Source of the DNA: Candidatus Kaiserbacteria bacterium
GTDB lineage: Bacteria; Patescibacteriota; Minisyncoccia; Phycocordibacterales; Phycocordibacteraceae
Length of the DNA: 57,631 nucleotides
Assembly: GCA_011322135.1 (NCBI GenBank)
Contig: DRNP01000043.1
Span: forward strand, 1-57,631
Reading direction: 5' to 3'
Of this stretch, positions 24,301 to 43,540 are shown in pieces (the first letter of the stretch is position 1; every line of letters begins with the position of its first letter). The notes beneath the pieces are model-generated. The model was not told the DNA's origin. It made no database searches and saw nothing but the letters and a program-made list of their open reading frames with translations. The position numbers and the translations under genes were made by a program.

Positions 24301-24909
24301 GAGCGATTCAATATATGTAGCATCGTATGTAAAATATGCTTTCCCCTGATCAACCCAATATCCCATGCGCTCTGTAAATTTTCGCCACTCATCTATATAT
24401 TTCCAAACGCTTTCCCTGCATTTTTTGTTAAAAGCTCCAATACCGTACGCCTCGATATCTTTCTTGCCGGAAAATTGCAAACTCTTCTCCACTTCCAATT
24501 CAACAGGAAGTCCGTGAGTGTCCCAACCTCCGCGACGACGCACGTGGTATCCTCGCATCGTCTTATATCTCGGTATCGCATCTTTGAAAGCGCGCGCCTC
24601 CAGATGATGAATGCCCGGACGCCCATTTGCAGTTGGCGGTCCCTCGTAAAAAACAAACTCTCCTTTAGGTGACGGCTTCTCCAATGACTTTTCAAAAATA
24701 TGATTTTCTTTCCAAAACTCCAACGTTGCTTTCTCTCGTGTGGCGGTTTTTGATTCTGCAAACGTATCAAAATCTACAGAGTTATCCGACTCGCCACTGT
24801 ACCCGTTTTTTTCAACGTGCTGTGAATTCGAAACCGAATTATTTGCCACTTCAGCGCTTTCAAACGCCGTGTCTGTTCTTTTTGTATGTGACTTTTTCAT
24901 ATAAATCAT
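21310..24909 (-). CDS. ileS: Isoleucyl-tRNA synthetase with an inserted histidine-phosphatase (PGAM-like) domain
   Basis: PPTANGRPGIHHLEAR (HIGH), editing CP1 (TTTPWTLPGN), WAISRERYWGTPLPVW, KMSKSKGN. Residues ~545-728 (22726-23277) carry RHGESQSN...SPFARTRETA...GGETLNDV...VSHGRTI. Confidence 0.9.
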   Translation of the reverse strand: MIYMKKSHTKRTDTAFESAEVANNSVSNSQHVEKNGYSGESDNSVDFDTFAESKTATREKATLEFWKENHIFEKSLEKPSPKGEFVFYEGPPTANGRPGIHHLEARAFKDAIPRYKTMRGYHVRRRGGWDTHGLPVELEVEKSLQFSGKKDIEAYGIGAFNKKCRESVWKYIDEWRKFTERMGYWVDQGKAYFTYDATYIESLWSILKHISKSGRLYKDYKVVPWCARCGTALSSHELAQGYEDVKDLSVTVEFLVSGKHNTYFLAWTTTPWTLPGNVALAVNPKMKYVTVEKETEGKTKRFILAKDRLEAVFGDETYRITEETLGSELVGMSYEALYPFARALASAEEETKFQKAHKVYPAQFVTAEDGTGIVHTAIMYGQDDFVLGTEVGLPKVHVVGADGRFIAGTGFLEGRFVKDEEVAVDIIKDLAGKGILFSKNKYEHSYPFCWRCKTPLIYYARDSWYIRMNDLRETMLAENEHIHWEPEHIKKGRFGEWLAGAKDWAISRERYWGTPLPVWENADGSESVVIGSLSDLAERTKTGHNVYVAVRHGESQSNIEQITSTSANIASSDHLTESGRAQVLETAKGLKENGGVDIIFTSPFARTRETAKILAKELGVSETHVLLEDRLREIDTGIFDGKKLKGYESFFERFEDRFDNAPEGGETLNDVKHRTGALLYELESRYSGKRILLVSHGRTIWALRSVAQGLSEKKAMEIPEVNNAEVVPLDFVPLPHNEKYELDLHRPYIDDVVLESENGEELHRVKEVMDVWFDSGAMPFASEHYPFENREWVEGHGYPADFISEAIDQTRGWFYTLHAVGTLTGRGHAYKNVICLGHLLDDKGRKMSKSKGNVINPWEAMAKWGVDTLRFWMYSVNQPGESKSFDGKTIREVARTLSWFENSAKFYSLFKNVQKKDSTNMQIIDRWMLARTKETVRTVTQSFDEYKLFEASRTIAKLLEDLSQWYVRRIRDRAREGDSSALNTLRDTLRTISLLIAPLAPFMAEEVFQNVRTDADPESVHLASWPEEKLSFALRLVNSFVSGHDKETLAEMERVRTFASEALMLRQKEGIKVRQPLSALSVPGNISREFATILADEVNVKKVNTKAEKLSLDTKITDDLVREGDVREFTRALAEARKSAGLSPTDTVRISIEENGRALLEKETIAGVSLITFDAGSDAQHTAKLSFGEIHFSITNDAT

Positions 24910-26713: not shown

Positions 26714-28105
26714 TTATACGCTCGTGAGCGCACCGCGTTTTGAAAGAAAATCATAATTGGATAGCGCTTTTTGCACATACATACGTAGACCTCTGTTGTG
26801 CACATGGTTAATCGATTTTTCAAATTCTCGTTTGTATAATTTCGGAGTCTGCGTAAAAACATGTCCAAAATAAGAATACGCTTCTGTCGGGAGATGGTGC
26901 GACATTGCGATAAATGCCAAAATTTCTTTATGCAAAATATCTGGCGGAGTTTTTGCAATCCTTTCCTCAGCAATCACCAGCTCTCTTTGTGAAAGTCTCC
27001 CTGAAAGTTGCGTCAAATGCTCGATTGCAACAAAATAAGCCACCTTGTGATGTTCTATTCCTGAAACTTTTTCAACCGACTTCGGGATTAAACCTTTTGG
27101 TAAAAGTGCCTCCACTTTTTCTGATAAATGACCAACTCCACCGGGAGCAAAGAGCGCCGGAGTTAACTGGTATGGTCCAAATGACGCTAATAAATCGTGC
27201 ACAGACGGAATCGCATCGATAAAATCCGTACCAGCATTACGCAAAAGAAAATCAAGTACGATGGCATTTGTCTCTCCGTCCGCTGAAGGCATAAGCTCTG
27301 TAAGAGAACACGCAATTAATTTTCTGGAGCTTATTCGAGATGCCATTTTTTCAATAAGAGCACGTCTTGCGCGCGGAAACTTTGCATCATTTCTAAGCTC
27401 ATACATTGCGTTCATAAATGCACGCTGTACGCTTTTTGTGGCATGAACTATATCCTTGGAATATTCATCGAGTGAAACTTTTTTAGCTTTACTCTGACTA
27501 TATGAACAATACAAATGTTCTGCCAAATCCATTAAATCTTTGTGTTCTTTCAAAAAAAGCTCGCGCACAATTTTCTCTTTTTCCGGCGAGTCAGTATGTT
27601 TATCGAAGCCAAACTTCATACGCCACAACCGCGCAAGGTTCGCTTTGAAATCTATTTGCAACTTTTCCGGTATAGTGCCCTTTTCATCAACACCTAAATA
27701 CATAGCATACAAGTTCGAAAGTTTTTTACCTTCAAGTGCTCCCACTGAAAAGGAGCGCGTTTTTTCTTTGTCGTGAAGAAAGGTGTACTTTTCTAAACCA
27801 TCGCCCTCCTCCGAAACATTTTGTTCACGTAATTTTTGCTTTAAATCTTTAATCTTTTTATCGGTAATACTTTCCTCTTTTTTCTTTGGTTTATCTTTTC
27901 GAGTGTGAGCGTTTGATGCAAGCTTGTCCGCAGTTTCTATGCCGGTTATCGCACTTATTGCAGTAACGAGAATACCGAGCTCTTTCAAAAACTCTCTGCG
28001 TGTCTTTTTCGTTCCGGTTTTTTCATGCTCCTTGCGCGCATGAGACACTGCGCTTTTGTCATTTTCGTATGCGCGTTGCGTGTTAAACGATTCCATCATA
28101 TACAA
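26714..28105 (-). CDS. Hypothetical protein with twin-arginine-like signal
   Basis: KKTRREFLKELGILVTAISAITG matches (S/T)RRxFLK plus an h-region. The rest is helical with no motif I can assign. Confidence 0.55.
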   Translation of the reverse strand: MYMMESFNTQRAYENDKSAVSHARKEHEKTGTKKTRREFLKELGILVTAISAITGIETADKLASNAHTRKDKPKKKEESITDKKIKDLKQKLREQNVSEEGDGLEKYTFLHDKEKTRSFSVGALEGKKLSNLYAMYLGVDEKGTIPEKLQIDFKANLARLWRMKFGFDKHTDSPEKEKIVRELFLKEHKDLMDLAEHLYCSYSQSKAKKVSLDEYSKDIVHATKSVQRAFMNAMYELRNDAKFPRARRALIEKMASRISSRKLIACSLTELMPSADGETNAIVLDFLLRNAGTDFIDAIPSVHDLLASFGPYQLTPALFAPGGVGHLSEKVEALLPKGLIPKSVEKVSGIEHHKVAYFVAIEHLTQLSGRLSQRELVIAEERIAKTPPDILHKEILAFIAMSHHLPTEAYSYFGHVFTQTPKLYKREFEKSINHVHNRGLRMYVQKALSNYDFLSKRGALTSV

Positions 28106-28117
28106 ATTGTTGCAATT

Positions 28118-29371
28118 TTATACAAATGATTCGGGAATAGGATGCGCGGTTGCCATTTTTTGTACTGTCTTTCGAACATTCTCCACGCTGTCTTTTTTTG
28201 TAAGAATATCTATCATTAGATTAGCTACAAGTGTAACGTCATCTTCTGTAAAACCGCGTGTGGTGAGAGCGGGAGTTCCGAAACGTATTCCGGAAGGGTC
28301 CATCGGTTTTCTTGTATCATTTGGAATGATATTTTTATTAAGAGTAATTCCTGCTTTATCAAGCAATGCCTCTGCATCCGCTCCTGAAACACCAAATGAC
28401 TTCCACGCGTCAAGCAAAATAAGATGGTTTTCCGTACCGCCCGCAACCATTTTCGCACCGTGCTCTGCAAAAACATGTGCCATTGCTTTAGCGTTTTTTA
28501 TAACCTGCAAAGAATATGTTTTGAAACTCGGGCGCAGTGCTTCACCAAAAGCTACCGCTTTCGCGGCAATATTGTTCATGTGCGGACCTCCTTGAAAGCC
28601 CGGGAATACACTTTTGTCTATTTTTCTTGCGAGCTCTGCACTGTTTCGTGTCAATATCATTCCTCCGCGCGGTCCGCGCAAAGTTTTGTGTGTTGTCGTT
28701 GTCAATAAGTCAAAACCGTAATCAAAAGGGTTCTTTACAGCACCTCCTGCAATAAGCCCTGCAATATGTGCGATATCCATCACAGCAAGCGCTCCGGACT
28801 CTTTCGCAATCTCTACAAATTTTGCATAGTCAAGCTCTCTAGGATATGCGGAAAAACCTGCAAGTAGGATTTTTGGCTTCACTTCATTTGCAATGCGACG
28901 CATTTCATCATAATCGATATCTCCGGTCTCTACGTCTTTCATTTGATAATGCGCAAAATTAAAAATCTTTGTGAGATATGTTACCGGATGTCCGTGCGTC
29001 AAATGTCCGCCATGAGAAAGTTCCATTCCGAGCACAGTATCCCCCGGTTCAAGTAAAGCAAAATACATCGCGATATTTGCGTTAGCTCCACCAAGAGGTT
29101 GCACATTTGCATATTCGGCATTAAAAAGTTTTTTAGCACGTTCTATCGCAGTTGTTTCTACCATGTCTGTAAAATCCTGCCCGCCATAATATCGCTTCTC
29201 CGGATAGCCTTCCGCGTATTTGTTTGTAAGTGTTGACGCAAGAGCGTCACGCACCGCATGCGACACATAATTTTCAGATGGTATAAGCTCTAATCCGTTT
29301 TCTTCACGCCCATCTTCTCCGACAACAGCAGTATAAACATCCATGTCTTCTCGTTTAAGAAAATCGTACAT
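28118..29371 (-). CDS. glyA: Serine hydroxymethyltransferase
   Basis: LELIPSENYVS, TTTTHKTLRGPRGG (PLP lysine motif), SHGGHLTHG. Confidence 0.95.
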   Translation of the reverse strand: MYDFLKREDMDVYTAVVGEDGREENGLELIPSENYVSHAVRDALASTLTNKYAEGYPEKRYYGGQDFTDMVETTAIERAKKLFNAEYANVQPLGGANANIAMYFALLEPGDTVLGMELSHGGHLTHGHPVTYLTKIFNFAHYQMKDVETGDIDYDEMRRIANEVKPKILLAGFSAYPRELDYAKFVEIAKESGALAVMDIAHIAGLIAGGAVKNPFDYGFDLLTTTTHKTLRGPRGGMILTRNSAELARKIDKSVFPGFQGGPHMNNIAAKAVAFGEALRPSFKTYSLQVIKNAKAMAHVFAEHGAKMVAGGTENHLILLDAWKSFGVSGADAEALLDKAGITLNKNIIPNDTRKPMDPSGIRFGTPALTTRGFTEDDVTLVANLMIDILTKKDSVENVRKTVQKMATAHPIPESFV

Positions 29372-29387: not shown

Positions 29388-29816
29388 TTATACTCCGGTC
29401 GTACCGAAACCGCCTCTGCTTTTCGTGGCTAAAGTATCAACCTCATCCCATTCGACACGGTTAAAAGGCAGGACAAGTATCTGCACAATACGTTCACCTC
29501 GTAATACTTTTACCGGCTCATGTGTGAAATTATAAATTACAGCATTATACTCATCATCATCCCCTGAAAAATCTTCATCGCAAATACCAACACCGTTTGC
29601 CAGCATCAATCCTCGTTTATGCAGTGAACTTCTGGCAACAAGCAAAACAAAATGACCGCGTGGTGGTTTTATTGCGATATTTAGAGGAACCATTCCGCAA
29701 ACTCCCGGAGCAATCTCCGTATCGACTCGCGCAACACAATCCATTCCGGCGGCACCGGCAGTTTTATATTCCGGAAGTTCTAGTTTTTTATCTATTTTTC
29801 GTATCAGCACTTTCAT
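29388..29816 (-). CDS. dut: dUTP diphosphatase
   Basis: ORF 29388..29834; likely start MKVLIRK at 29816. AGAAGMDC, RSSL..RGLMLANGVGICDEDFSGD, GGFGTTG C-terminal motif. Confidence 0.85.
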   Translation of the reverse strand: MKVLIRKIDKKLELPEYKTAGAAGMDCVARVDTEIAPGVCGMVPLNIAIKPPRGHFVLLVARSSLHKRGLMLANGVGICDEDFSGDDDEYNAVIYNFTHEPVKVLRGERIVQILVLPFNRVEWDEVDTLATKSRGGFGTTGV

Positions 29817-29878
29817 ATAAACGTATTGTAGCACATCACGATTTTTGAAACGTCAAGACTAATTCGCGAGTCTATACT

Positions 29879-30802
29879 ATGTTAAACTGCGATTATTCAA
29901 TAATGAAGTCAATCACCTTAAAGAAGGTTCATTCATTCGGTGCGGTGGAGGACATGCTCCATAACATAATCTTTCGAGGTCTATACAATACTAATGGCAA
30001 AAACATATCCCCGTACAAAAACGCCCACATATCACTTACAAAAGTTTACCCGCAAACATCTCTTGGTACTTCTCCTAACATACACATCGGACGTAAACAA
30101 GAACCTCTTTTTACTCCCCAACCTACAATTTACGAAAACCAAAGCGCCATCATTGAAAAAGTCGACTCTTTCTTACTTGAGCACGATATAAAAATGAGTG
30201 ATTTACATAATGCTATTGAATATACCTGGGAAGGTCGAGGAACATTTCACATTCTTCCTCCTGTTATAGAAAAACACACGTACCAAATGAAAAACGGGTA
30301 TCTCGATATTTCTCAACTTTTAAAACGATTCAAAAATGCATATATAAAAGATGCTCTCGGAAATATGCACACGCTGTCCAGACGATACTTGCGTTCATTT
30401 TATATCGACGAAGTAAGCTCTATAGAACACCTTGATGTTTTTAATTCAAACGTACCAATACTCAACTACGGTCTCGGACATAACGGTGACTTCACTTTTT
30501 ATATAGTATGTGATGGCGCCCACCGTCTTGATTACGTTCTGGAAAAAATAAAAGAACCAATGACAGTGCTGTTGGTCGAGCCTAAAAAAGATGCCTCTCT
30601 GCTATATCCATACTACGCGCTACCTGTTCCCTTTCGTCCATCGATACGTCTTTCAAGCAAAAGATCTGAAAAGATGTACCGCAAACTTGAGCGGGATAAA
30701 ATACATTTGTTAAATGACTTTATAAAAAAGACACTTCACTACGACTGGGAAGCCGGCGGACTAAGCGTAAGTAAACTGAGAAGCAATGTCGACATTTATT
30801 GA
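29879..30802 (+). CDS. Hypothetical protein, ParB/Srx-fold-like (DGxHR motif)
   Basis: FYIVCDGAHRLDYVL (DGxHR, as in ParB/sulfiredoxin/SerK-type domains) and an upstream ISLTKVYPQTS strand-like element. First gene of the operon. Confidence 0.45.
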   Translation: MLNCDYSIMKSITLKKVHSFGAVEDMLHNIIFRGLYNTNGKNISPYKNAHISLTKVYPQTSLGTSPNIHIGRKQEPLFTPQPTIYENQSAIIEKVDSFLLEHDIKMSDLHNAIEYTWEGRGTFHILPPVIEKHTYQMKNGYLDISQLLKRFKNAYIKDALGNMHTLSRRYLRSFYIDEVSSIEHLDVFNSNVPILNYGLGHNGDFTFYIVCDGAHRLDYVLEKIKEPMTVLLVEPKKDASLLYPYYALPVPFRPSIRLSSKRSEKMYRKLERDKIHLLNDFIKKTLHYDWEAGGLSVSKLRSNVDIY

Positions 30803-31613
30803 TAAAAACAATTCTGCTCGTGCTACAACTCGCTCCGGTAATGTCTACACGGGAGTTCACATTGCAAGTACGACACATATTTTAGATATTTCGGCGGAGC
30901 TTTCCGCACTTGTAAATGCCGTGCACAATTCTGATTTGTATGTAACTGAAATGGAAACCGTACAAACCAAAAACACCGCGCCATCGCCACTTGTACTCAA
31001 GATTATTGCAGACCACGGCGCGCGCACGGGCGTACCTATTCATTACATACTGCGAGACGAATACGGAAAGATTCATTTCGAGACAAAAGATGCTAATCAC
31101 GAACTCGGTTCATATATTCAAACAAACTCCATATTAAAATCTTTTGGAAACAGATTTCCGTCTACAGCAAAAATACTCGCAAAAGATGTTGCTCAGGATA
31201 AGCTTGAATCAACATTAAAAAAATATGCCGTCGATGGGATATCACGAAACTTCCCAACATACGATGGAGCATCCGGGTACGGTTCCGCCGTCCGCACAAA
31301 AAACGGAGATATTTATTTTGGTGGTCAATATTCCGCATCAGACCAACGCTTGGGAGTTCATGCAGAAATGGCAGTGCTAACACAAGCAATCTCAGATGGA
31401 GCAACAGGATTTACACATATCGCTCTTGCATCAAGTAAATTTAAAGATGCACCCGCAAGCCCGTGCGGTTGTTGTCGACAATTTATTTCTGAAGCGTCGC
31501 ACGAAACAAACAGCAACCCAAACATTCTTCTATTTGCATCAAACTCAAACTCTTCGAGCGCTTACACTATCGATGAGCTACTTCCTGTACAATGGACTAA
31601 CAGAGCATCATAA
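30786..31613 (+). CDS. Tandem-domain cytidine/deoxycytidylate deaminase-fold protein (N-domain degenerate, C-domain catalytic)
   Basis: C-domain: VHAEMAVL (res 191-198) and SPCGCCRQFI (res 225-234). N-domain has the CDA scaffold but ISAELSAL and SPLVLKII in place of the zinc ligands. Start overlaps the upstream stop by 17 nt. Confidence 0.75.
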   Translation: MSTFIDKNNSARATTRSGNVYTGVHIASTTHILDISAELSALVNAVHNSDLYVTEMETVQTKNTAPSPLVLKIIADHGARTGVPIHYILRDEYGKIHFETKDANHELGSYIQTNSILKSFGNRFPSTAKILAKDVAQDKLESTLKKYAVDGISRNFPTYDGASGYGSAVRTKNGDIYFGGQYSASDQRLGVHAEMAVLTQAISDGATGFTHIALASSKFKDAPASPCGCCRQFISEASHETNSNPNILLFASNSNSSSAYTIDELLPVQWTNRAS

Positions 31614-31627
31614 TACATATTATAAAT

Positions 31628-34039
31628 ATGTCTGCAAAAACAAAACAACCGCATTTTCCAATAGTCGACTCGCTTCTTCTAACTCCAAAAAATGCTGATA
31701 AAGGATATATCGGCATCTGCACAAACACTTCCGCACCGGGTCAAGTTTATAACGACATTCGAGAAAGCTTGCGCGAAAGCGTTTCTGTTCTGGGTCCTTT
31801 GATTGTAAACAGAGACGGAACCGAGCGCATGATTCTAAATACACTTGTGCACCCTACAATGACATACCTGATTCTCTTTTCCGAAGAGTCGCTTACTTTT
31901 TCGCCAAGCACAAACCTCTTGCTCGCACTAAAAAACGGCTTCGATAAAAAACGCTCTAGCAACTATATTGCCGGAGGTAAAGCCATGTCTGCATACTACC
32001 CGAATATCTCACCGGCAATTCTGGATACTTTCAGAAAAAACATTACCGTCATTCCTTTGTTTATGTCTCAAAATAAAGACAGCTCTGATATTATCGAAAA
32101 ATATATAGAGTGGCTTGAGGATTCTTCTCGTCTTCCTAAGAATATTCTAGAGTTTTTAAAAGAAGCAAATACAAAAAAGAAAAAATATTTTGATCAACTT
32201 AATGAACTTGTGGCGATGCTCGATGAACTGCCCAAAAGTCCAAAAGCTACGATAGCTCTGGACCCTAAAGACTTTCAACAACTTCAACCTCCACGAGTCG
32301 ACATAAAGAAAAACGATACCCCCCTTCCGGCTCCTTTTCGAGCAAGTATCGAGGACGGTCACTTACGGCTCGATATACGAATAAATAATCATACTTATTT
32401 TATTCGTGGAGATGATGATTTTCGTATTGAATATACTCTGATGCGTTTTCTCGGCAAAGACAAATCCGCTCTTTCTCCAATTGAGCAATTTTTAATAGGA
32501 GCTGAACTAAATCGCATAAACGTCGAACTCTCTCTTTCGACGAGGACTCCTTCGTTTGTTCTTGAAAACAACATTTCCGGCACCGAGGAAATATTTCTGG
32601 AACCGACATTGTCGCTCATGCCGGACAAAGAATACTATTACAAGATAGGACTGTCTGATGACGAGCTTTCCGTTATGTGTATGGCATTTGACACATGCGC
32701 CGAAGTTTTTGATTTACGTTCAAAGGGCATCACCGGCATTTTTACATGGCTTTCTGAAAAAAACCGTTTCCAAAATTACGAAATGGATATATTGCATCGA
32801 ATGGATATCGGCGGACAAATCGGTCGTGCTCGCATTGCGCTTCGGCTGGGATATTCTTTTATACAAGACTTCCCCAACATATTCAAAATAAACACAAAGG
32901 AGCTTCCTCTCGTCATTGCAGAAAGTGATTCTTTTTTGGACACTCATCGAAACCTTTTAATGAAAGTGTACACAGAAGGGATTACAGAAGCTCACGGAGA
33001 CGAGCGTAAAGGACTTGCTCGCACAGCTATTGCTCTGGCGGTATATCGCGATACAAAAAATGCTTTTTCAAAAATGCCAGCCATCTACGCACAAGGAGAC
33101 CTATCTCCGGAAGCAATGCGCGAATCATACAAAAAACAATTACTTCGTTTTGATTATGACGGCGACTACAGCTATGGAGAACGCACACGAGCACACTTTG
33201 GTTTTGACCAACTTAAAAAAACTCAAGAACTCTTAAAAGACAACCCTTCACAAGCAACTATTGTTCAGCGTTTTGATCCGATAATTGATATGGGTATATC
33301 AAAAAATCCTGATACCGGTCAAATGGAATATACACACGACCCGTGTCTTACACACGACATATTTTTTATAGAGCATGGAAAATTACATTCATTTCACATT
33401 GCTCGTGCGCACAATTTACCAAATGCATATCCTGAAAATGTTTTTGGGCTGTACGACGCCTATGTTTCCACAATACGAGACACGCTAAAACTAAAGCATG
33501 GTGACATGTACATGCTTTCTTCTCGCGGAAATATTCTTTTGCTAACAGAAGAACAGCGCGTGCGAAAAATAATCGCAGAACCTTCGAAACCAATGAGTGG
33601 TGTAAATCGTGAAAGCGGACCGGCGCTCATCGGTAAAAACGTACTCCCCGCAAAGCACTCCGGCGTCTCATATCTAACGGCAAGTCTTACAGATGAGAAA
33701 CTTTTTAATCATTCGTTTATCGAACGAATACGCAATTTTGAAGGAGTTGATACGCTCGAGCGCGCTATAAAATACCTAAAAACAAAAGGTGCGTCTCACA
33801 ACAATCCTATTTTAACTACACACCAAGCAGGTATAACGAACCCGCAAGATGACCATCTCGCTTTCTTTCAAGCAAACGTCTTTGGTAAAAAAATACAAGT
33901 AACCGCCATATTCTCAAACCATAAACCAAACCCTCAAATTGATATACGTATTGTTAGTGCGCTGGCGGGACAATATGCATCCGAACTCTCGACACCTCTC
34001 GGAGAAACAACTATATTTTATATCAATGGAGAATCTTAA
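31628..34039 (+). CDS. 803-aa fusion: MtrA-like/DUF4346-like N-domain + unknown middle + divergent thymidylate-synthase/dCMP-hydroxymethylase-fold domain + C-terminal extension
   Basis: Res ~433-650 align by eye to ThyA: [92 protein letters not shown]. Cys573 codon is at 33344-33346. The N-terminal [33 protein letters not shown]...LLALKNGFD...[10 protein letters not shown] resembles MtrA-like domains. Confidence 0.65.
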   Translation: [803 protein letters not shown]

Positions 34040-34682
34040 TTTTCATGTAATCGGTTTTGATCTTGATCACACTCTTTATCCAAAGTCGAAAAAGATAGAT
34101 GAAAAGATACAGAGTTATCTTTACGGGAAAATTGCCGAAAATAAAAAAATAACATTATCAAAAGCACGGTCACTTTTTGATGAACGTTATAAAAACGGAT
34201 CCGGAACAAGCGGTGGGCAAACACTTCGAGATATTGGAATTGAAAATGGGTCGGAGATTATTCAAGAAGCTCTGGAAAATGCGGATATTTCATCCATGCT
34301 AACCCCCGACAAAAATGTAAACAGTCTTATTTCGCAAATTGTTTCAAAATATAAAAATGTAGATTTAATCACCGGTTCAAACATGCACCAAACTCACATA
34401 AAACTGAACGCCTTGGATATACCTCTAAAAACTTTTTCACACATTATTACCGCAGATGACGGATCAAAATCAAATGGTGATAATTTTAAAAAATGGCTGT
34501 CTCTGTATCCGAGTTACAACCCTAAACATTTTTTGTATATAGGAGACCGCGCGCGTCTTGATTGCGATGTTCCCTCCGCTCTTGGGATACACACTGCTCT
34601 GGTATATGTAAAAGAAGTCGATGAAAAATTACCGTGTACTCAATATCATTCGCTCGTCGACACGCTTCAAGATTTATTATGA
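34026..34682 (+). CDS. HAD-superfamily hydrolase, pyrimidine 5'-nucleotidase-like
   Basis: ORF 33939..34682. Likely start MENLNF at 34026, overlapping the upstream stop by 14 nt. Motif I GFDLDHTLYP, motif II LITGSN, motif IV YIGDRARLD. Confidence 0.75.
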   Translation: MENLNFHVIGFDLDHTLYPKSKKIDEKIQSYLYGKIAENKKITLSKARSLFDERYKNGSGTSGGQTLRDIGIENGSEIIQEALENADISSMLTPDKNVNSLISQIVSKYKNVDLITGSNMHQTHIKLNALDIPLKTFSHIITADDGSKSNGDNFKKWLSLYPSYNPKHFLYIGDRARLDCDVPSALGIHTALVYVKEVDEKLPCTQYHSLVDTLQDLL

Positions 34683-34685: not shown

Positions 34686-34714
34686 ATCGGCTCATGTCTA
34701 AAGACATGAGCCGA
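34686..34714. terminator. Bidirectional terminator hairpin between convergent genes
   Basis: atcggctcatgtct / agacatgagccgat, a 14-nt inverted repeat, 4 nt after the HAD stop. Confidence 0.6.
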
Positions 34715-34734
34715 TGCATGTATAACGTGCATAC

Positions 34735-35316
34735 TTATTCCCATTTGTAAAAGACAATCTTCCCATCCGCTTCTTTTACGATAAGAGGAATAACGATGTT
34801 TTTAGGAACGGTCATTTTGTAAAATAACTTTTTATAAATGGTCGGGAGCCCGGGATAGCTCCCACTTTCTTTTTTTTCAGTTCGGATTTCAATACCATTG
34901 GTCGGCAACCCTACTAAAAAAGGAAGCTCTTCCCGAAGAAGTCTCTCCAAAGATTCGTTTGGGTTTTCACCCTGTTTCATCTTTTCTCCAACAGAGGCAT
35001 CGAGATGCCTCTCCCTTTCTCGACCGTCCTGCAGTATCTGTTTATATTCCCGCAGAACCTTCTCGTTCTGATAAACATAGAGGCAAATTACGCTTATGAT
35101 CCTGACGAGCTCTGCTTGATCTATCGCAAAAACACACTCCCCTGTTTTTGCCTCTTCGAGCAAGCACTCTACACTTTTGGCAGACCCAATTCCATATTCA
35201 TGAATTGGGATTTTGTAAAAGTTCATCAAGCGTAAAAGATCTTCTTTTGACCGCGGTATCTTTGTTTCCCATAACCTGGAATCCATATCACTCCTCCCTT
35301 TTTTGGAAAGTTGCAA
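34735..35316 (-). CDS. Hypothetical protein with degenerate Nudix-box-like segment
   Basis: VGEKMKQGENPNESLERLLREELPF compared with the Nudix box Gx5Ex7REUxEExGU: the GE, R and EE positions are kept, others are substituted. Monocistronic between two terminators. Confidence 0.4.
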   Translation of the reverse strand: MQLSKKGRSDMDSRLWETKIPRSKEDLLRLMNFYKIPIHEYGIGSAKSVECLLEEAKTGECVFAIDQAELVRIISVICLYVYQNEKVLREYKQILQDGRERERHLDASVGEKMKQGENPNESLERLLREELPFLVGLPTNGIEIRTEKKESGSYPGLPTIYKKLFYKMTVPKNIVIPLIVKEADGKIVFYKWE

Positions 35317-38845: not shown

Positions 38846-38940
38846 AATTTTATATAAATGATTATTTTAATATTATATCAGCAATTCTGTTGCAAAAATC
38901 CATTGTACACACGAAACACGCACTGCTAGTTTTATTTTTG

Positions 38941-39014
38941 GGCGACCTATGGGACTCGAACCCATAACCGCTGGTACCACAAACCAGAGCTCTACCAATT
39001 GAGCTAAGACCGCC
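38941..39014 (-). tRNA. tRNA-His (GTG) with encoded G-1
   Basis: Reverse complement: g-gcggtct-ta-gctcaattggtagagc...ctggt-ttGTGgt-accag...gggttcgagtccc...aggtcgc-c. Cloverleaf checked by hand; G-1 pairs with C73. Confidence 0.9.
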
Positions 39015-39062
39015 ATGCGTACATTGCACGCACACTGTTTATAACACAGAAAACCAAAAGTA

Positions 39063-39653
39063 TTAATATTCCGGCACTTCTTCTTTCACTTCACTCGCGT
39101 GGTTTGCAAGACGTGCGAGCGCATAAAGGAGTGATGAAAGACGATTCAAATACACAAGGGATGCTTCTCGTTGCTCTTTTACGGGAACCGTCACTTCCCC
39201 GTATTGTGTTTTAACACCGTCGCGCTCAAAACAAAAAGCTACCTCTCGCCTTTCCGCCCGTCTTGCAATTGCACGCGCCATATCAAAAAGTGCAGACCGC
39301 TCCGTACTACCCGGAATAAAAAAAGAATGTATCGGTGGTAATATTTTTTCAATATCTGCAATAATCTTTTCCATCGTATCCACTTTCTCTTGTGTAATAT
39401 GTTTATCCGCACCCGCAATCTCTGCCTGTATCGTAAAAAGATTTTGTTGTATTTCTGTAAGTATCTCGTACACGCTCCGCTCGCCTACCGCAAACGATTT
39501 GTCTTTTCCTATTTTCGATTTACACAAGCCTATGTACGAATTGAGTTCATCTACAGTTCCCAGTGCTTCAGCGAGTTTTTCGCTTTTTGAAAAACGCTGG
39601 TCACAGCCAAACGCACATGTTGTTCCTGAATCTCCTTTACGTGTATAAAGCAT
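39063..39653 (-). CDS. ATP:cob(I)alamin adenosyltransferase, PduO type
   Basis: MLYTRKGDSGTT N-terminus, DELNSYIGL, and a helical bundle typical of the PduO/MMAB family. Confidence 0.85.
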   Translation of the reverse strand: MLYTRKGDSGTTCAFGCDQRFSKSEKLAEALGTVDELNSYIGLCKSKIGKDKSFAVGERSVYEILTEIQQNLFTIQAEIAGADKHITQEKVDTMEKIIADIEKILPPIHSFFIPGSTERSALFDMARAIARRAERREVAFCFERDGVKTQYGEVTVPVKEQREASLVYLNRLSSLLYALARLANHASEVKEEVPEY

Positions 39654-39658
39654 GTTTT

Positions 39659-40684
39659 TTATAATACACTTTTTTCCTCCGACGAACCCGACCCTACATC
39701 TCCAAGCTCATACACAAGAACATGCTTCGACGAAAGATATGCAAAGAAAATAAGCATCACGCCAATACTTGCAACAAACCATTCAGGCAATGGTGTCAGA
39801 AGAGCAACAAACATACATATCGCTAGAGCGAATATCGCCCAGTGAGCTCCGTTTTCGAGATAAAGCATTCTTTTTAAAGTCCCTCCGCGCACCAGCATTA
39901 ACGTTAGCGTGCGAACAAAATATGCTCCTATTCCCAATCCTGCAACTATCACAGGTACTGAAGTTGTGATGGCAAAAGCCCCGACGACACTATCCAGAGA
40001 AAACGCCATATCAAGCACACTTAAGTACAAGAAAAAAGCCACACCGGAGTGTACGACATTTTTTGCTTCTACACCAAGCGCTCTGGTAACACCTTCCATC
40101 GCAATAAACAGAACCGTCCCGAACAAACCACTCTCCAAAATAATCTCTGACTGGTGTTTTGAAAGTATCGCAACCAAAAGAAGTACTGAAAGCGCCAAGG
40201 CAATATTTATTGCTTCAAGCTGTCCCCAGCTCGCAAACTTTCGTTCTATTATTGTGAACCAATGCACGTCTTTCTTTTCATTAAAGAAATATCGGAGCGC
40301 TATAAGCAAAAGAAATGTTCCCCCAAACGCTTTTATTGCAGGCTCTGCTGCAGCTATTAACACTGCATATTTTGCAGGCTCTGTAAAAATGAGCACCGCT
40401 ACTGTGGATGGCGAAAGTGCCAAAACCACACTCACGATAAGCACCGGCAAAACAAAACGAACAATTCCTACAGACACCAAAACTCCCCATGTAAGAAAAA
40501 ACTGTTGCCAGCGCAATGGCATCTTTTCCAAAATCCTGGCATTGATAACAGCGTTATCAAATGAAAACGTTATTTCCAATACGGCGAGAGCAAGTGTGAT
40601 GAGAAAAGCCGGAAGACCTCCCCACACATACATTATTGAAAGCACAACCACTGATATGAGCACGGGAGTAAAAAGTAACTTCAT
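39659..40684 (-). CDS. DUF475/TerC-like integral membrane protein
   Basis: LEITFSFDNAVINARIL and a second FSLDSVVGAF repeat; about 9 TM segments. Confidence 0.7.
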   Translation of the reverse strand: MKLLFTPVLISVVVLSIMYVWGGLPAFLITLALAVLEITFSFDNAVINARILEKMPLRWQQFFLTWGVLVSVGIVRFVLPVLIVSVVLALSPSTVAVLIFTEPAKYAVLIAAAEPAIKAFGGTFLLLIALRYFFNEKKDVHWFTIIERKFASWGQLEAINIALALSVLLLVAILSKHQSEIILESGLFGTVLFIAMEGVTRALGVEAKNVVHSGVAFFLYLSVLDMAFSLDSVVGAFAITTSVPVIVAGLGIGAYFVRTLTLMLVRGGTLKRMLYLENGAHWAIFALAICMFVALLTPLPEWFVASIGVMLIFFAYLSSKHVLVYELGDVGSGSSEEKSVL

Positions 40685-40783
40685 TGAAAATTGAAAAAAT
40701 TAAAGATACGCCAATATGTTTATAAAGTATAGCAAACAAAAAACGTGGCGAGCCGACGGCTCGCCACGTTTTTTGTTTTTTTG

Positions 40784-40865
40784 TGCCCAGGAGAGGACTC
40801 GAACCTCCAAGCCTTGCGGCATATGCACCTCAAGCATACGCGTATACCAATTCCGCCACCTGGGC
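40784..40865 (-). tRNA. tRNA-Leu (GAG), type II long variable arm
   Basis: Reverse complement: gcccagg...tatgc-ttGAGgt-gcata-tgccgcaaggct-tggaggttcgagtcctct-cctgggc-a. Confidence 0.9.
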
Positions 40866-40927
40866 AGGTGTATCGCTACTATACCGAGAACTCGGCTTTT
40901 TTACAAACAAAAGCAATATGAGCTCCC

Positions 40928-41506
40928 CTATTCAGAAACTTTTTCTTCTTTGCTTTCCGAATCTTTTACTGTCTCTTTTTTGTCTGATGTTTCCGGATTT
41001 TCTTTTTCCGAATCTTTTACTGTCTCTTCAGAAGTTTTTTCCGATACTTCTTCCGAAACAGATTCTTCATTTGCGTTTGTATCGGAATCAGATTCTTCTG
41101 CTTTTTCTTGCGTTTCTTTTTCAGCAAAGTCATCGGTGGAGATATTCATTATGCGTGCATTGCGAAGCTGGCGACGCACAGCCTTTGCAGCTTTCTCACG
41201 AATAAAGTATAGCTTTGATCTGCGTACTTTCGAGCGCTTTACAATCTCAATTTTCTCAATGAGAGGTGTATACAGTGGAAATGTCTTTTCCACACCGATA
41301 CCTGAAAGAGTTGTACGTACTGTAAAAGTACCGCCTGCTTCAGATCCGTGCTTCACAGAGATAACGAGACCTTCAAAAATCTGAATTCGTGTTTTTCCAC
41401 GCTCAATAACTTTTTGATGAACTTTTACTGTGTCACCGGACTTTATACCGAGCTTGCTACGCTCCTCGCTTTTAACGGGAGAAATAATAGTATTCATGAG
41501 TGGCAC
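40928..41506 (-). CDS. rplS: 50S ribosomal protein L19 with acidic C-terminal extension
   Basis: GDTVKVHQKVIERGKTRIQIFEGLVISVKHGSEAGGTFTVR. About 70 aa Glu/Ser/Asp-rich tail. Confidence 0.9.
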   Translation of the reverse strand: MPLMNTIISPVKSEERSKLGIKSGDTVKVHQKVIERGKTRIQIFEGLVISVKHGSEAGGTFTVRTTLSGIGVEKTFPLYTPLIEKIEIVKRSKVRRSKLYFIREKAAKAVRRQLRNARIMNISTDDFAEKETQEKAEESDSDTNANEESVSEEVSEKTSEETVKDSEKENPETSDKKETVKDSESKEEKVSE

Positions 41507-41564
41507 AGTATCATATTAAAGGACAAACGCAAGCGTTTACACTAAAATACCTCTCTGAAAATAC

Positions 41565-42314: not shown

Positions 42315-42322
42315 AATAATTT

Positions 42323-42399
42323 TGGTGGGCGCTGGAGGATTCGAACCCCCGACCTACCCGGTGTAAACGGGTTGCTCTGACCAACTGAGCTAAGCGCCC
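42323..42399 (-). tRNA. tRNA-Val (TAC), CCA encoded
   Basis: Reverse complement: gggcgct-ta-gctcagttggtcagagc-a-acccg-ttTACac-cgggt-aggtc-gggggttcgaatcctcc-agcgccc-acca. Confidence 0.9.
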
Positions 42400-42456
42400 T
42401 TCTTCAATATTTAGGCAATGGTCGCAAACTACTTTGCGCTTCCTGCATTGCCTTTG

Positions 42457-42993: not shown

Positions 42994-43024
42994 TCCTGGA
43001 AAAATTTCTACCTCTAAAAACTTG

Positions 43025-43504: not shown

Positions 43505-43540
43505 GTTTTTTTATTTAAGCACATTCACTAAAATAATGCT

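What the first reader, a model, noticed from the sequence alone, without database searches (positions are those of the whole stretch)
29879..34682. Translationally coupled four-gene pyrimidine-processing operon built from non-canonical enzyme architectures
The four plus-strand ORFs are packed like a single operon. The 30786 start lies 17 nt before the 30802 stop, a 14-nt gap leads to 31628, and the 34026 ATG lies 14 nt before the 34039 stop. The operon ends at a strong hairpin (34686-34714). Motif reading gives four products. (i) A 307-aa protein with IVCDGAHRLD, i.e. DGxHR as in ParB/Srx-fold nucleotide-binding or kinase-like domains. (ii) A two-domain cytidine-deaminase-fold protein in which only the C-terminal half keeps HAE...PCGCCRQ. 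(iii) An 803-aa thymidylate-synthase-fold fusion. (iv) A HAD hydrolase with FDLDHTLYP, as in pyrimidine 5'-nucleotidases. The neighbours fit the same theme: dUTPase is divergently transcribed ~60 bp upstream, SHMT (the methylene-folate source) is the next gene, and a Nudix-box-like protein lies convergently downstream. Every function converges on (deoxy)pyrimidine nucleotides, yet none of the three central enzymes has the textbook form. I see two hypotheses: a lineage-specific route to dTMP or thymidine, or a pathway producing a modified pyrimidine (hydroxymethyl or other C5 adduct) analogous to phage base-hypermodification clusters. This is my best candidate for an undescribed system in the window.
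Basis: partly seen in the sequence, partly recalled or inferred. Interest (0 to 1): 0.85.

Follow-up and report, generated by a model that had tools for sequence, protein, structure and literature searches.

The report
Conserved CPR/DPANN deoxyuridylate-modifying four-gene operon
Four tightly packed genes in this Kaiserbacteria genome form an uncharacterised operon, shared by many ultra-small bacteria and archaea, that feeds cytosine-derived deoxyuridylate to an unusual thymidylate-synthase-like enzyme whose product (thymidylate or a modified base precursor) is still unknown.

Summary
Four plus-strand genes (29879/29903-34682) overlap or nearly abut. They encode: A, a divergent ParB-CE-family protein; B, a tandem cytidine deaminase whose N-terminal half is degenerate; C, an 803-aa thymidylate-synthase (TS)-like protein; D, a HAD phosphatase.

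C consists of an MtrA-like domain, a PterinBD-DUF4346 domain, an active TS domain and a degenerate second TS repeat.

The quartet is syntenic in 44/45 (A+B) and 48/49 (D) related loci from Paceibacteria and from DPANN archaea. dUTPase, dCTP deaminase, SHMT, Nudix/MazG, Tmk or Ndk often lie beside it. Two gene fusions (B+C and C+D) link three of the products.

The quartet is an elaboration of a widespread three-gene operon, MtrA-TS-PterinBD + HAD + ParB-CE, seen in 33/36 environmental loci.

TS-like proteins linked to ParB-CE keep the residues matching E. coli C146, Y94, R166 and N177. They have lost the 3'-OH ligands H207 and Y209, and most, including C, carry D169N. A 2026 paper reports D169N as diagnostic of flavin-dependent C5-hydroxylating TS homologues.

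I favour a lineage-specific route from dC/dCTP through dUMP to dTMP (about 0.45). A modified deoxyuridylate pathway is the main rival (about 0.3). I could not test whether these genomes lack thyA/thyX.

No experimental description was found in the library searched. I rate it a new variant of a known kind, interest 0.7.

The parts
28118..29371 (-). Serine hydroxymethyltransferase (GlyA), the source of 5,10-methylene-THF. It lies downstream of dut on the divergent strand.
   Evidence: Pfam SHMT 484.6 bits; NCBIfam NF000586 549.9 bits, above the cut-off of 335. SHMT is adjacent to the cluster in many related loci and next to the triad in L081 and L114.
29388..29834 (-). dUTPase (Dut), transcribed divergently from gene A.
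   Evidence: Pfam dUTPase 66.7 bits; TIGR00576 98.2 bits. A dUTPase or DCD is present beside the quartet in 14 of 29 loci that have at least 5 kb on both sides.
29835..29902 (.). Short divergent intergenic region between dut and gene A, the presumed promoter region.
   Evidence: Sequence read. No strong sigma-70 consensus match here. The promoter role is an inference only.
29903..30802 (+). Gene A: a 299-aa (ORF 307-aa from 29879) divergent ParB-CE-family protein with an invariant CDGxHR motif and a conserved C-terminal tail.
   Evidence: Pfam PF24392 23.0 bits, equal to the cut-off. hhalign against a bona fide ParB-CE protein (144 bits) gives 93.7%, E 1.8e-7 over residues 14-242. AF2 model pLDDT 82, with no Foldseek hit in PDB or BFVD.
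30786..31613 (+). Gene B: tandem cytidine-deaminase-fold protein. The N-terminal half is degenerate (SAE, no PCxxC). The C-terminal half is catalytic (HAE...PCGCCRQ).
   Evidence: TIGR01354 68.5 bits for residues 166-271; PDB 1ux1 E 1e-10. hhalign N-half vs C-half 95.8%, C-half vs B. subtilis CDA 98.8%. Zn-ligand and Glu motifs are conserved in 49 sequences.
31685..32137 (+). Gene C, residues 20-170: MtrA-like Rossmann-type domain lacking the cobalamin His ligand (F91 instead).
   Evidence: PDB 5laa E 1e-5 with alignment. NF002126 40 bits. hhalign vs the MtrA-like domain of the short family 98.9%.
32294..32542 (+). Gene C, residues 223-305: small alpha+beta domain, possibly a second, degenerate DUF4346-like module.
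   Evidence: hhalign vs DUF4346 41%, E 2.8e-4, which is weak. AF2 secondary structure.
32543..32872 (+). Gene C, residues 306-415: PterinBD-DUF4346 (putative pterin-binding) domain.
   Evidence: hhalign 97.3%, E 2.6e-11. Pfam PF14251 hits the equivalent region of relatives P0245, P0266 and P0269.
32885..33592 (+). Gene C, residues 420-655: catalytic thymidylate-synthase-fold domain. It has C573, Y516, R593 and N604, with variant N596 (D169N), N635 and L637.
   Evidence: TIGR03283 58.4 bits, E 7e-16. Foldseek PDB TS-fold hits at E ~1e-8, top hit 9iqu. hhalign vs E. coli ThyA and the A3 alignment.
33593..34039 (+). Gene C, residues 656-803: degenerate second TS half-repeat with no Cys and no Arg. 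This makes an intramolecular pseudo-dimer.
   Evidence: hhalign vs the TS profile 96.5%, E 7.4e-10 over 95 columns.
34026..34682 (+). Gene D: HAD-superfamily phosphatase (FDLDHTLY = DxDxT), nearest to pyrimidine 5'-nucleotidases.
   Evidence: Pfam HAD_2 26 bits, above the cut-off of 23.8. TIGR01993 39.8 bits, below its cut-off. The motif is invariant in 50 orthologues. Fused to C in P0247.
34686..34715 (.). 13-bp perfect hairpin between the convergent genes. The T-run is on the minus strand, so it terminates the Nudix-like gene and is possibly bidirectional.
   Evidence: -29.1 kcal/mol, z -6.8.
34735..35316 (-). Convergent 193-aa Nudix-like protein, a frequent accessory neighbour.
   Evidence: No Pfam hit itself. 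35% identity, E 3e-13 to the L003 orthologue, which hits Pfam NUDIX at 26.2 bits. A Nudix is present in 12 of 29 full loci.

Best explanation
The four genes are one operon. It encodes a lineage-specific pyrimidine deoxynucleotide conversion line that ends in a C5 one-carbon transfer onto deoxyuridylate. In these reduced genomes the product is most probably dTMP.

Proposed flow:
- Cytosine deoxynucleos(t)ides scavenged from the host are dephosphorylated by D, the neighbouring Nudix or A.
- B deaminates the resulting nucleoside.
- dUTP is cleaved by the adjacent dUTPase.
- The resulting deoxyuridylate is attacked at C6 by Cys573 of protein C.
- C transfers a methylene unit from a pterin cofactor. 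Its MtrA-like and PterinBD-DUF4346 domains would hold the cofactor, and the neighbouring SHMT would charge it.

C works as a single-chain pseudo-dimer. Its degenerate C-terminal TS repeat replaces the second subunit of ThyA.

A (ParB-CE family) and D (HAD) set the phosphorylation state of substrate or product. A is either a pyrimidine (d)NTP phosphohydrolase or a phosphotransferase.

Shown here: the operon structure, domain identities, conservation of catalytic residues, synteny, gene fusions, and linkage to a wider TS/HAD/ParB-CE triad.

Inferred: substrate identities, the order of steps, the C1 donor, the product, and the activity of A.
For: Operon and synteny:
- A+B are present in 44/45 loci and D in 48/49 loci with enough flank. 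These loci span Paceibacteria and DPANN.
- Fusions B+C (P0245) and C+D (P0247) exist.

Catalytic competence of C:
- TS fold; TIGR03283 E 7e-16.
- Equivalents of C146, Y94, R166 and N177 are invariant in 48 sequences.
- The uracil-type Asn at the N177 position fits the upstream C-to-U deaminases.

dUMP and C1 supply genes cluster with the quartet:
- dUTPase and SHMT in the window.
- DCD in L014 and L059; Nudix, MazG or an extra HAD inserted in DPANN loci.
- SHMT next to the triad in L081 and L114.

dTMP-consuming genes lie nearby:
- Thymidylate kinase is beside the cluster in L016 (Pfam 61.5 bits).
- Ndk is present in L054 and L059.

Other support:
- Core-genome position next to L11-NusG-SecE in 20/29 loci argues for housekeeping.
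- No ThyA, ThyX, DHFR or Tdk was found in the window or in 0.92 Mb of related loci.
- Paceibacterales are reported to carry functional folA, glyA and folD (PMC11974145).
- JGI annotates several family members as thymidylate synthase.
Against: - C and most other ParB-CE-linked TS-like proteins have D169N and lack H207 and Y209.
- D169N is reported as diagnostic of flavin/O2-dependent 5-hydroxylating TS homologues (PMC13326640). From my own recollection of L. casei TS mutagenesis (not checked here), Asp-to-Asn at this position abolishes classical activity.
- C scores far below curated TS cut-offs (58 vs 174.55; Pfam 12.6 vs 24.3).
- The core triad coexists with canonical ThyA+DHFR on contig L135. 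A canonical-signature short form, without HAD or ParB-CE, sits beside ThyA+DHFR in L008. The triad is therefore not simply 'the' TS everywhere.
- A plain dTMP route needs neither a ParB-CE protein nor a HAD phosphatase, yet both are almost obligately linked (33/36 loci).
- Absence of thyA/thyX from the whole genomes could not be tested.
Confidence: 0.45

Rival explanations
1. The operon makes a non-canonical C5-modified deoxyuridylate (5-hydroxymethyl-dUMP or 5-hydroxy-dUMP) rather than dTMP.
- C would be the hydroxymethylase or hydroxylase.
- A would be the dedicated kinase that host-type kinases cannot replace.
- D would be the nucleotidase that removes the competing canonical nucleotide or releases the nucleoside.
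- B, DCD and dUTPase would supply dUMP.

This is the same parts list as phage base-replacement pathways. The product would enter DNA or serve as a nucleoside metabolite or signal.
For: - D169N is present in C and in all 13 ParB-CE-linked short-form TS-like proteins whose motif was captured. This is the published signature of 5-hydroxy-dCMP synthases (PMC13326640).
- The best Foldseek match by TM-score is the HY126 dCMP hydroxylase AfhB, 9iqu, TMt 0.73.
- The nearest phage TS domains include ones annotated as dUMP hydroxymethyltransferases.
- A polar His570 sits at the L143 position, which is hydrophobic in methylating TS and acidic in hydroxymethylases.
- The triad coexists with ThyA+DHFR in L135.
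- Pairing a TS homologue with a cognate kinase is the phage paradigm.
- Tight TS/HAD/ParB-CE linkage in 33/36 loci.
Against: - The quartet sits in conserved core-genome synteny in very small genomes.
- The SHMT and PterinBD context argues for folate or pterin C1 chemistry, not flavin/O2 hydroxylation.
- From my own knowledge, many hosts of the quartet (hydrothermal and groundwater CPR, Woesearchaeota) live without oxygen, which disfavours an O2-dependent hydroxylase.
- The characterised hydroxylases have N177D and L143E, which C lacks.
- Tmk is adjacent in L016.
- The long-form relatives P0269 and L067 are ParB-CE-linked but keep RSHD.
- No evidence exists that A is a kinase.
Confidence: 0.3
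2. The module is a nucleotide-targeting conflict (immune) system. ParB-CE and HAD would act as sequential (d)NTP-degrading effectors. The TS-like protein would sense or generate a modified nucleotide signal.
For: - From my recollection of Nicastro et al. (NAR 2023, paper not held), Pfam's ParB-CE family comes from their analysis of nucleotide-degrading effectors.
- A Calcineurin-CE + HAD pair is an experimentally shown dNTP-depleting defence (PMC12871103 abstract).
- Three triad loci are followed by a ~1050-aa protein with a C-terminal ParB-CE-like region (HMM hit). By eye its N-terminal part looks like a metallophosphoesterase, which was not tested.
- ParB-CE genes also occur on phage-like contigs.
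Against: - The CPR/DPANN quartet has a fixed position next to ribosomal and NusG genes across classes and across two domains. This is unlike variable defence islands.
- No PADLOC or PHROG hit for A, B or D; C hits only PHROG thymidylate-synthase families and no PADLOC family.
- The neighbours are anabolic (SHMT, Dut, Tmk, Ndk).
- Catalytic residues of B and C are strictly conserved.
Confidence: 0.07
3. The module acts mainly on the cofactor side, in pterin, folate or flavin salvage. HAD and ParB-CE would dephosphorylate and phosphorylate a pteridine. The TS-like and PterinBD protein would bind it.
For: - Two or three putative pteridine-binding modules are present in C.
- Nudix plus HAD resembles the dihydroneopterin triphosphate dephosphorylation steps of folate synthesis (established pathway knowledge).
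- FolB is nearby in L001.
- The C+D fusion P0247 is labelled 'FMN phosphatase YigB' by JGI.
Against: - The conserved pyrimidine-specific partners (CDA, DCD, dUTPase) and the intact nucleotide-activating Cys, Tyr, Arg and Asn of C point to a pyrimidine substrate.
- No reductase or pterin-synthesis gene is consistently linked.
Confidence: 0.05

Closest known systems
Methanogen-type thymidylate synthase (NCBIfam TIGR03283; MJ0757-like) and its MtrA-TS-PterinBD(DUF4346) fusion form of ~470-500 aa
   Same: - The TS domain of C is closest to this family (E 7e-16; hhalign 99.8%).
- It shares the same accessory MtrA-like and DUF4346 domains.
- It has the same PCL, YxYGxR and GKL motifs.
   Different: - C is 803 aa and the domain order is rearranged, with DUF4346 before the TS domain.
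- C has an extra degenerate TS repeat.
- The (S/T)RR pair is lost.
- RSHD becomes RAHN and SAHIY becomes SRGNIL.
- It scores 58 bits against a cut-off of 174.55.
- It is obligately linked to ParB-CE, HAD and CDA genes.
Canonical ThyA (E. coli/human thymidylate synthase, PF00303)
   Same: - Same fold (Foldseek E ~1e-8).
- Covalent-catalysis residues matching C146, Y94, R166 and N177 are present.
- dUMP- and CH2-THF-supplying genes are nearby.
   Different: - Not detectable by the Pfam model (12.6 bits).
- D169N, and H207, Y209, R126 and R127 are absent.
- A single-chain pseudo-dimer rather than a homodimer.
- Three extra N-terminal domains.
Flavin-dependent 5-hydroxy-dCMP synthases of phages (RB69 gp48, DLP3 gp80, HY126 AfhB; PDB 9iqu)
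   Same: - TS fold.
- Best TM-score match (0.73).
- Shares the published diagnostic D169N.
   Different: - Those enzymes carry N177D and L143E and act on dCMP. C keeps Asn604 and has His570.
- C has pterin-type accessory domains and an SHMT neighbour.
- C occurs in cellular, often anaerobic, lineages.
Phage thymidine-replacement pathways (SPO1/SP8-type 5-hmdU; dUMP hydroxymethylase + dCMP deaminase + dUTPase + dTMP nucleotidase + hmdUMP kinase). The parts list is from my own knowledge.
   Same: Same functional parts list: a C-to-U deaminase, a TS-family enzyme, a nucleotidase, NTP pyrophosphatases and a candidate phosphotransferase.
   Different: - The operon is in a cellular core genome.
- The enzyme families differ: tandem CDA rather than dCMP deaminase, ParB-CE rather than a P-loop kinase.
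- No modified base is known in these organisms.
TS/HAD/ParB-CE three-gene operon of environmental bacteria (e.g. Magnetococcales GCA_015233905; soil metagenome contigs)
   Same: - The same three protein families in one operon.
- The same variant TS active site (RxHN, loss of H207 and Y209).
- A C-to-U deaminase (DCD) and SHMT are sometimes attached.
   Different: - Those operons use the ~500-aa short TS form and a ~200-aa ParB-CE protein, in the order TS-HAD-ParB-CE.
- The window has the 800-aa long form, a 300-aa extended ParB-CE relative and an added tandem CDA, in the order A-B-C-D.
- As far as I could find, that triad is itself uncharacterised.

Membership tests
Thymidylate synthase ThyA superfamily (PF00303 / TIGR03283) | TS alpha/beta fold | tested here: met
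   Foldseek of the AF2 model (pLDDT 85.5) against PDB gave 402 matches with E <= 0.001. All 50 listed are TS-fold enzymes at E ~1e-8 with probability 1.00.
Thymidylate synthase ThyA superfamily (PF00303 / TIGR03283) | Catalytic Cys in a P-C motif, plus equivalents of Y94, R166 and N177 | tested here: met
   C573, Y516, R593 and N604 are invariant in 48 sequences and align to E. coli C146, Y94, R166 and N177.
Thymidylate synthase ThyA superfamily (PF00303 / TIGR03283) | Pterin-binding Asp169, 3'-OH ligands H207 and Y209, and the inter-subunit R126/R127 pair | tested here: not met
   The equivalents are N596, N635 and L637. SRR is replaced by SQAT (consensus xRAT).
Thymidylate synthase ThyA superfamily (PF00303 / TIGR03283) | Score above the curated model cut-off | tested here: not met
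   TIGR03283 58.4 bits vs 174.55; PF00303 12.6 bits vs 24.3.
Thymidylate synthase ThyA superfamily (PF00303 / TIGR03283) | Converts dUMP plus CH2-THF to dTMP plus DHF | not testable with these tools
   Needs an enzyme assay or complementation of a thyA mutant.
Flavin-dependent pyrimidine C5-hydroxylating TS homologues (5hodCMP synthases) | D169N signature | tested here: met
   N596 is invariant. The signature is described in PMC13326640.
Flavin-dependent pyrimidine C5-hydroxylating TS homologues (5hodCMP synthases) | N177D and L143E (cytosine substrate, open active site) | tested here: not met
   N604 is retained, and the L143 position is His570.
Flavin-dependent pyrimidine C5-hydroxylating TS homologues (5hodCMP synthases) | Bound FMN and O2-derived hydroxyl | not testable with these tools
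   Needs spectroscopy and 18O2 labelling.
Cytidine deaminase (TIGR01354 / PF00383) | (H/C)AE and PCxxC zinc and catalytic motifs in a CDA fold | tested here: met
   HAE and PCGCCRQ lie in residues 142-272. The motifs are conserved in 49 orthologues. hhalign vs B. subtilis CDA 98.8%. PF00383 32.5 bits, above the cut-off of 25.
Cytidine deaminase (TIGR01354 / PF00383) | Equivalog-level score, i.e. the same function as characterised CDA | tested here: not met
   TIGR01354 68.5 bits vs 113.65. The degenerate domain precedes the catalytic one here. From my own knowledge, E. coli dimeric CDA has the opposite order.
HAD superfamily phosphatase / pyrimidine 5'-nucleotidase (TIGR01993) | DxDxT nucleophile motif and HAD core | tested here: met
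   FDLDHTLY is invariant in 50 sequences. HAD_2 26.0 bits, above the cut-off of 23.8.
HAD superfamily phosphatase / pyrimidine 5'-nucleotidase (TIGR01993) | Equivalog score for pyrimidine 5'-nucleotidase | tested here: not met
   39.8 bits vs 142.9.
ParB-CE (PF24392) / ParB-Srx fold | Sequence membership in the ParB-CE family | tested here: met
   The direct hit is 23.0 bits, equal to the cut-off. Many orthologues carry the precomputed hit. hhalign to a 144-bit member gives 93.7%, E 1.8e-7 over 179 columns.
ParB-CE (PF24392) / ParB-Srx fold | Structural similarity to ParB N-terminal domain or sulfiredoxin | tested here: inconclusive
   No Foldseek hit in PDB or BFVD (best E 0.13-0.16). hhalign vs Srx and Spo0J aligns the strand-DGxHR-helix core, but only at E 0.15-0.34.
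ParB-CE (PF24392) / ParB-Srx fold | NTP binding, hydrolysis or phosphotransfer | not testable with these tools
   Needs biochemistry.
MtrA (PF04208) corrinoid-binding subunit | Rossmann-like MtrA fold similarity | tested here: met
   PDB 5laa E 1.1e-5; NF002126 40.4 bits; hhalign 98.9% to the short-family N-terminal domain.
MtrA (PF04208) corrinoid-binding subunit | His lower-axial ligand of cobalamin | tested here: not met
   In the alignment to 5laa, the MtrA 'qgHivgq' His aligns to the invariant F91. That this His is the ligand is from my own knowledge of the MtrA structure.
PterinBD-DUF4346 (PF14251) | Profile match to the domain | tested here: met
   Residues 306-415: hhalign 97.3%, E 2.6e-11. 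Pfam hits fall in the same region of relatives.

The most novel reading that the evidence does not exclude
Paceibacteria and Woesearchaeota/Nanoarchaeota-type DPANN, two large radiations of ultra-small symbionts, may use this operon to make a non-thymine C5-modified deoxyuridine nucleotide (5-hydroxymethyl- or 5-hydroxy-dU).
- The D169N TS-like enzyme C would make it.
- The ParB-CE protein A would phosphorylate it.
- It would then be incorporated genome-wide.

This would be the first lineage-wide DNA base replacement in cellular prokaryotes. It could, for instance, shield their DNA while they digest host DNA.

A slightly less radical version: C is a third mechanistic class of thymidylate synthase (ThyA fold, non-classical cofactor use) and is the only one these organisms have.
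Probability: 0.15. Interest if true: 0.95.

Novelty: new variant of a known kind. Interest (0 to 1): 0.7.

Why it matters
Thymidylate supply is a universal requirement, and only two enzyme solutions (ThyA, ThyX) are established.

This operon is conserved across CPR bacteria and DPANN archaea. It is built around a TS-fold protein with a rearranged multi-domain architecture, an internal pseudo-dimer and a changed cofactor and sugar pocket. That protein is always partnered with a ParB-CE protein and a HAD phosphatase.

If it is their thymidylate synthase, it revises metabolic reconstructions of these lineages and defines a new TS class. It also gives ParB-CE a housekeeping role.

If it makes a modified nucleotide, it would be the first such pathway fixed in cellular lineages.

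Either way it assigns a testable function to four 'hypothetical protein' families. It also points to a widespread TS/HAD/ParB-CE operon in soil bacteria.

Tried and rejected
- PDB sequence searches for A, with a single sequence and with a profile, gave nothing meaningful.
- Foldseek of the A model against PDB and BFVD gave no hit. I could not confirm the ParB/Srx fold. hhalign against recalled Srx and Spo0J sequences was not significant.
- A profile of C against PDB sequences found only MtrA, not TS.
- PHROGs and PADLOC gave no hits for A, B or D.
- tblastn of canonical ParB-CE against cultured phages found nothing.
- Literature searches for ParB-CE, DUF4346/PterinBD and MtrA+TS in Patescibacteria/DPANN found no description of the system. 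The Nicastro et al. 2023 paper, which probably defines ParB-CE, is not held.
- Searches for ThyA, ThyX, Tdk, Tmk and FolA in the window and in 0.92 Mb of related loci found only Tmk in L016.
- The first ParB-CE alignment was too divergent for a metagenome scan and was redone with a subset.
- Cobalamin dependence was considered because of the MtrA-like domain and a PduO-type adenosyltransferase at 39063-39653. I rejected it as unsupported, since the His ligand is absent.
- Chance adjacency is rejected by synteny.

Full report
**1. Observation**

- A is 29879-30802. Orthologues begin at its ninth codon, so 29903 is the likely start.
- B is 30786-31613, overlapping A by 17 nt.
- C is 31628-34039, after a 14-nt gap.
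- D is 34026-34682, overlapping C by 14 nt.

Upstream and divergent lie dUTPase (29388-29834) and SHMT (28118-29371), both with strong profile hits. Downstream and convergent is a 193-aa ORF (34735-35316). It has no Pfam hit of its own, but it is homologous (35%, E 3e-13) to a protein at the same position in another genome that does hit Pfam NUDIX.

The hairpin at 34686-34715 is real: a 13-bp stem, -29 kcal/mol, z -6.8. Its T-tract is on the minus strand, so it is first of all the terminator of the Nudix-like gene.

The organism is a Candidatus Kaiserbacteria bacterium. Protein C is 100% identical to NCBI ENJ75_02825, annotated 'hypothetical protein'.

**2. The four proteins**

*Protein D* is a HAD phosphatase. 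HAD_2 scores above its cut-off and the DxDxT motif FDLDHTLY is invariant in 50 orthologues. Its nearest named family is pyrimidine 5'-nucleotidase, but far below the equivalog cut-off.

*Protein B* is a tandem CDA.
- Residues 142-272 match tetrameric cytidine deaminases (PDB 1ux1, E 1e-10; hhalign 98.8% to B. subtilis CDA).
- HAE and PCxxC are conserved in 49 orthologues.
- The N-terminal half is a degenerate copy (hhalign to the C-terminal half 95.8%). It keeps a Glu but has lost the zinc ligands.

*Protein A* gives only a borderline Pfam ParB-CE hit, at 23 bits. However, a profile of 35 orthologues aligns over residues 14-242 to a bona fide ParB-CE protein (144 bits) at 93.7%, E 1.8e-7. The alignment includes the CDGxHR and PYYA(F/Y)P motifs.

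Its AlphaFold model is confident (pLDDT 82, pTM 0.82) but matches nothing in PDB or BFVD. Alignment to sulfiredoxin and Spo0J picks the expected strand-DGxHR-helix core without significance. Family membership is therefore supported, and the ParB/Srx fold is plausible but unproven here.

*Protein C* is the centrepiece. Profile-profile dissection, together with Pfam, NCBIfam and PDB hits, gives this layout:
- Residues 20-170: MtrA-like domain (98.9%). The cobalamin-ligating His of MtrA is replaced by the invariant F91.
- Residues 223-305: a weak DUF4346-like module.
- Residues 306-415: PterinBD-DUF4346 (97.3%).
- Residues 420-655: a TS domain (99.8% to the methanogen-type TS of related fusion proteins; TIGR03283 E 7e-16).
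- Residues 656-803: a second, degenerate TS half-repeat lacking Cys and Arg (96.5%, E 7e-10).

The AF2 model (pLDDT 85.5) hits TS-fold structures at E ~1e-8. The top hit, and the best by TM-score (0.73), is the phage HY126 dCMP hydroxylase AfhB (9iqu). Both B and C are thus single-chain pseudo-dimers with one live active site.

**3. Active site of C**

Alignment with E. coli ThyA and with relatives shows invariant equivalents of the nucleophile C146 (C573), Y94 (Y516), R166 (R593) and the uracil-specifying N177 (N604).

Several other positions differ:
- D169 is Asn (N596; RSxD becomes RAHN).
- The 3'-OH ligands H207 and Y209 are N635 and L637.
- The inter-subunit R126/R127 pair is gone, while a new invariant Arg appears in QRFDP.
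- The L143 position is His570.

**4. Conservation and context**

C has about 800-aa full-length homologues at 48-73% identity throughout Paceibacteria.

A scan of one genome per GTDB species returned 53 loci. They come from Kaiser-, Nomura-, Zambryski-, Vogel- and Sungbacteria and others, and also from DPANN archaea (Woesearchaeota, Nanoarchaeia, Iainarchaeum) at 40-46% identity.

In a BLAST census of these loci:
- A+B accompany C in 44/45 loci with enough upstream sequence.
- D accompanies C in 48/49 loci with enough downstream sequence.
- Among the 29 loci with at least 5 kb on both sides, L11/NusG occur in 20, dUTPase or DCD in 14, and a Nudix in 12.

SHMT is adjacent in many loci. Tmk lies between SHMT and dut in L016 (Pfam 61.5 bits). 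Ndk follows the cluster in two DPANN loci. In some DPANN loci an opposite-strand Nudix, MazG-like or second HAD-like gene is inserted between B and C.

Rosetta-stone fusions exist: P0245 is B+C and P0247 is C+D.

No ThyA, ThyX, DHFR or Tdk was found in the window or in 0.92 Mb of these loci. This says nothing about the rest of the genomes.

**5. A wider system**

More distant long-form TS-like proteins (26-33% identity; P0269 and the L067 protein) also sit next to ParB-CE, and in L067 next to HAD as well.

In a Magnetococcales genome the operon is MtrA-TS-DUF4346 (492 aa) - HAD - ParB-CE - dCTP deaminase.

A metagenome scan seeded with canonical ParB-CE returned 80 loci. Of the 36 that are at least 5 kb long, 33 have the order TS-like, HAD, ParB-CE. 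DCD or SHMT is occasionally attached.

All 13 ParB-CE-linked short-form TS-like proteins whose motif I could read carry R(S/T/A)HN and lack SAHIY. By contrast, 30 of 37 context-unknown short forms keep D, H and Y. Two short forms with known context and no linked ParB-CE or HAD (archaeal L007, Parcubacteria L008) also keep them.

The triad coexists with canonical ThyA and DHFR 2 kb away on contig L135. A canonical-signature short form sits in a row with NDK, ThyA and DHFR in a Parcubacterium.

The window's quartet is therefore the CPR/DPANN elaboration of a conserved TS/HAD/ParB-CE module whose TS has a distinct active-site signature. The elaboration consists of the long-form C, an extended A and an added tandem CDA.

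**6. What it does**

Several lines all say that a uracil deoxynucleotide, derived from cytosine or dUTP, is activated at C5 by Cys573:
- the partners: C-to-U deaminases acting at different phosphorylation levels, dUTPase, Nudix/MazG, SHMT, Tmk and Ndk;
- the uracil-type Asn at the N177 position;
- the intact covalent-catalysis residues.

The pterin-type domains and the recurrent SHMT neighbour favour a one-carbon transfer. In genomes this small, with the operon fixed in the core next to L11-NusG-SecE, the simplest product is dTMP. Paceibacterales are reported to have functional DHFR, GlyA and FolD (PMC11974145). I give this reading about 0.45.

Against this reading:
- A 2026 study found D169N to be the diagnostic signature of FMN/O2-dependent 5-hydroxy-dCMP synthases within the TS superfamily (PMC13326640).
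- The nearly obligate HAD and ParB-CE partners are not needed for plain dTMP synthesis.
- The triad coexists with ThyA elsewhere.
- The parts list mirrors phage base-replacement pathways.

A modified deoxyuridylate (5-hm or 5-ho) is the main rival, at about 0.3. Strict hydroxylation is disfavoured for CPR/DPANN. The reasons are the SHMT and PterinBD context, the retained Asn604, the ParB-CE-linked relatives that keep RSHD, and (from my own knowledge) the anoxic habitats.

Two minor alternatives remain: a conflict-system reading, in which ParB-CE plus HAD act as nucleotide-depleting effectors, and a cofactor-salvage reading.

The activity of A is unknown. It may be a pyrimidine (d)NTP hydrolase, as I recall was proposed for ParB-CE, or a phosphotransferase like sulfiredoxin and SerK.

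**7. Known or new**

NCBI calls all four proteins hypothetical. JGI sometimes labels C 'thymidylate synthase / MtrA'. I found no paper describing the operon, the long-form architecture, the pseudo-dimer or the TS/HAD/ParB-CE linkage.

The Pfam names ParB-CE and PterinBD-DUF4346 show that the domains have been catalogued. The likely source paper (Nicastro et al. 2023) could not be read, so a prior computational mention cannot be excluded.

I classify the system as a new variant of a known kind, namely TS-superfamily pyrimidine C5-modification pathways. Interest is 0.7.

Noticed in passing
window 21310-24909 (-): The isoleucyl-tRNA synthetase (1199 aa) carries a complete histidine-phosphatase (His_Phos_1, 115 bits) domain inserted at residues ~549-731, between the two halves of the catalytic domain. 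The same insertion is annotated in the orthologue in L003.
   Followed up: partly
window 39063-39653 (-): A PduO-type ATP:cob(I)alamin adenosyltransferase (Pfam 146.6 bits) sits in this reduced genome. I found no link to the MtrA-like domain of protein C, which lacks the cobalamin His ligand.
   Followed up: partly
L135:7270-10431, L140:7668-10943, L102:619-3735: In three soil-metagenome loci the TS/HAD/ParB-CE triad is followed by a ~1050-aa protein. By eye, its N-terminal part looks like a calcineurin-type metallophosphoesterase, and its C-terminal part is ParB-CE-like (VCDGNHR, PYYARPF). This could be a nucleotide-targeting conflict effector next to the metabolic triad.
   Followed up: no
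L008:5772-9425: A Parcubacteria contig has NDK, a canonical 334-aa ThyA (312 bits), DHFR and a 474-aa MtrA-TS-PterinBD protein with the canonical D/H/Y signature, all in a row. Two TS-family genes therefore lie side by side.
   Followed up: partly
L011:7001-7594, L012:3690-4289: Stand-alone ParB-CE genes occur on phage-like contigs (terminase, portal and capsid genes nearby in L011) with no TS-like or HAD partner.
   Followed up: no
window 51104-55231 (-) and 1111-4539 (-): Two very large secreted or surface proteins. One is 1375 aa with an LCAT/lipase-like alpha/beta-hydrolase domain after a Gly/Ser-rich N-terminal part. The other is 1142 aa with a peptidoglycan-binding domain and long Ser/Thr-rich repeats. 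Both are candidates for host interaction.
   Followed up: partly
window 38940-47307: Six tRNA genes (His, Leu-GAG, Val, Leu-CAG, Arg-TCT, Ser-TGA) are scattered among genes that look, by eye, like a type IV pilus assembly set (PilM/N/O-like, 43541-46047). A MazE-type antitoxin pair lies at 48346-48851. Several mechanical ORFs here are only translations of tRNA genes.
   Followed up: partly
window 26714-28105 (-): A 463-aa protein between ArgRS and SHMT has a Tat-like N-terminal signal (weak TIGR02811 hit) and no family assignment. Its position is conserved only loosely in relatives.
   Followed up: no
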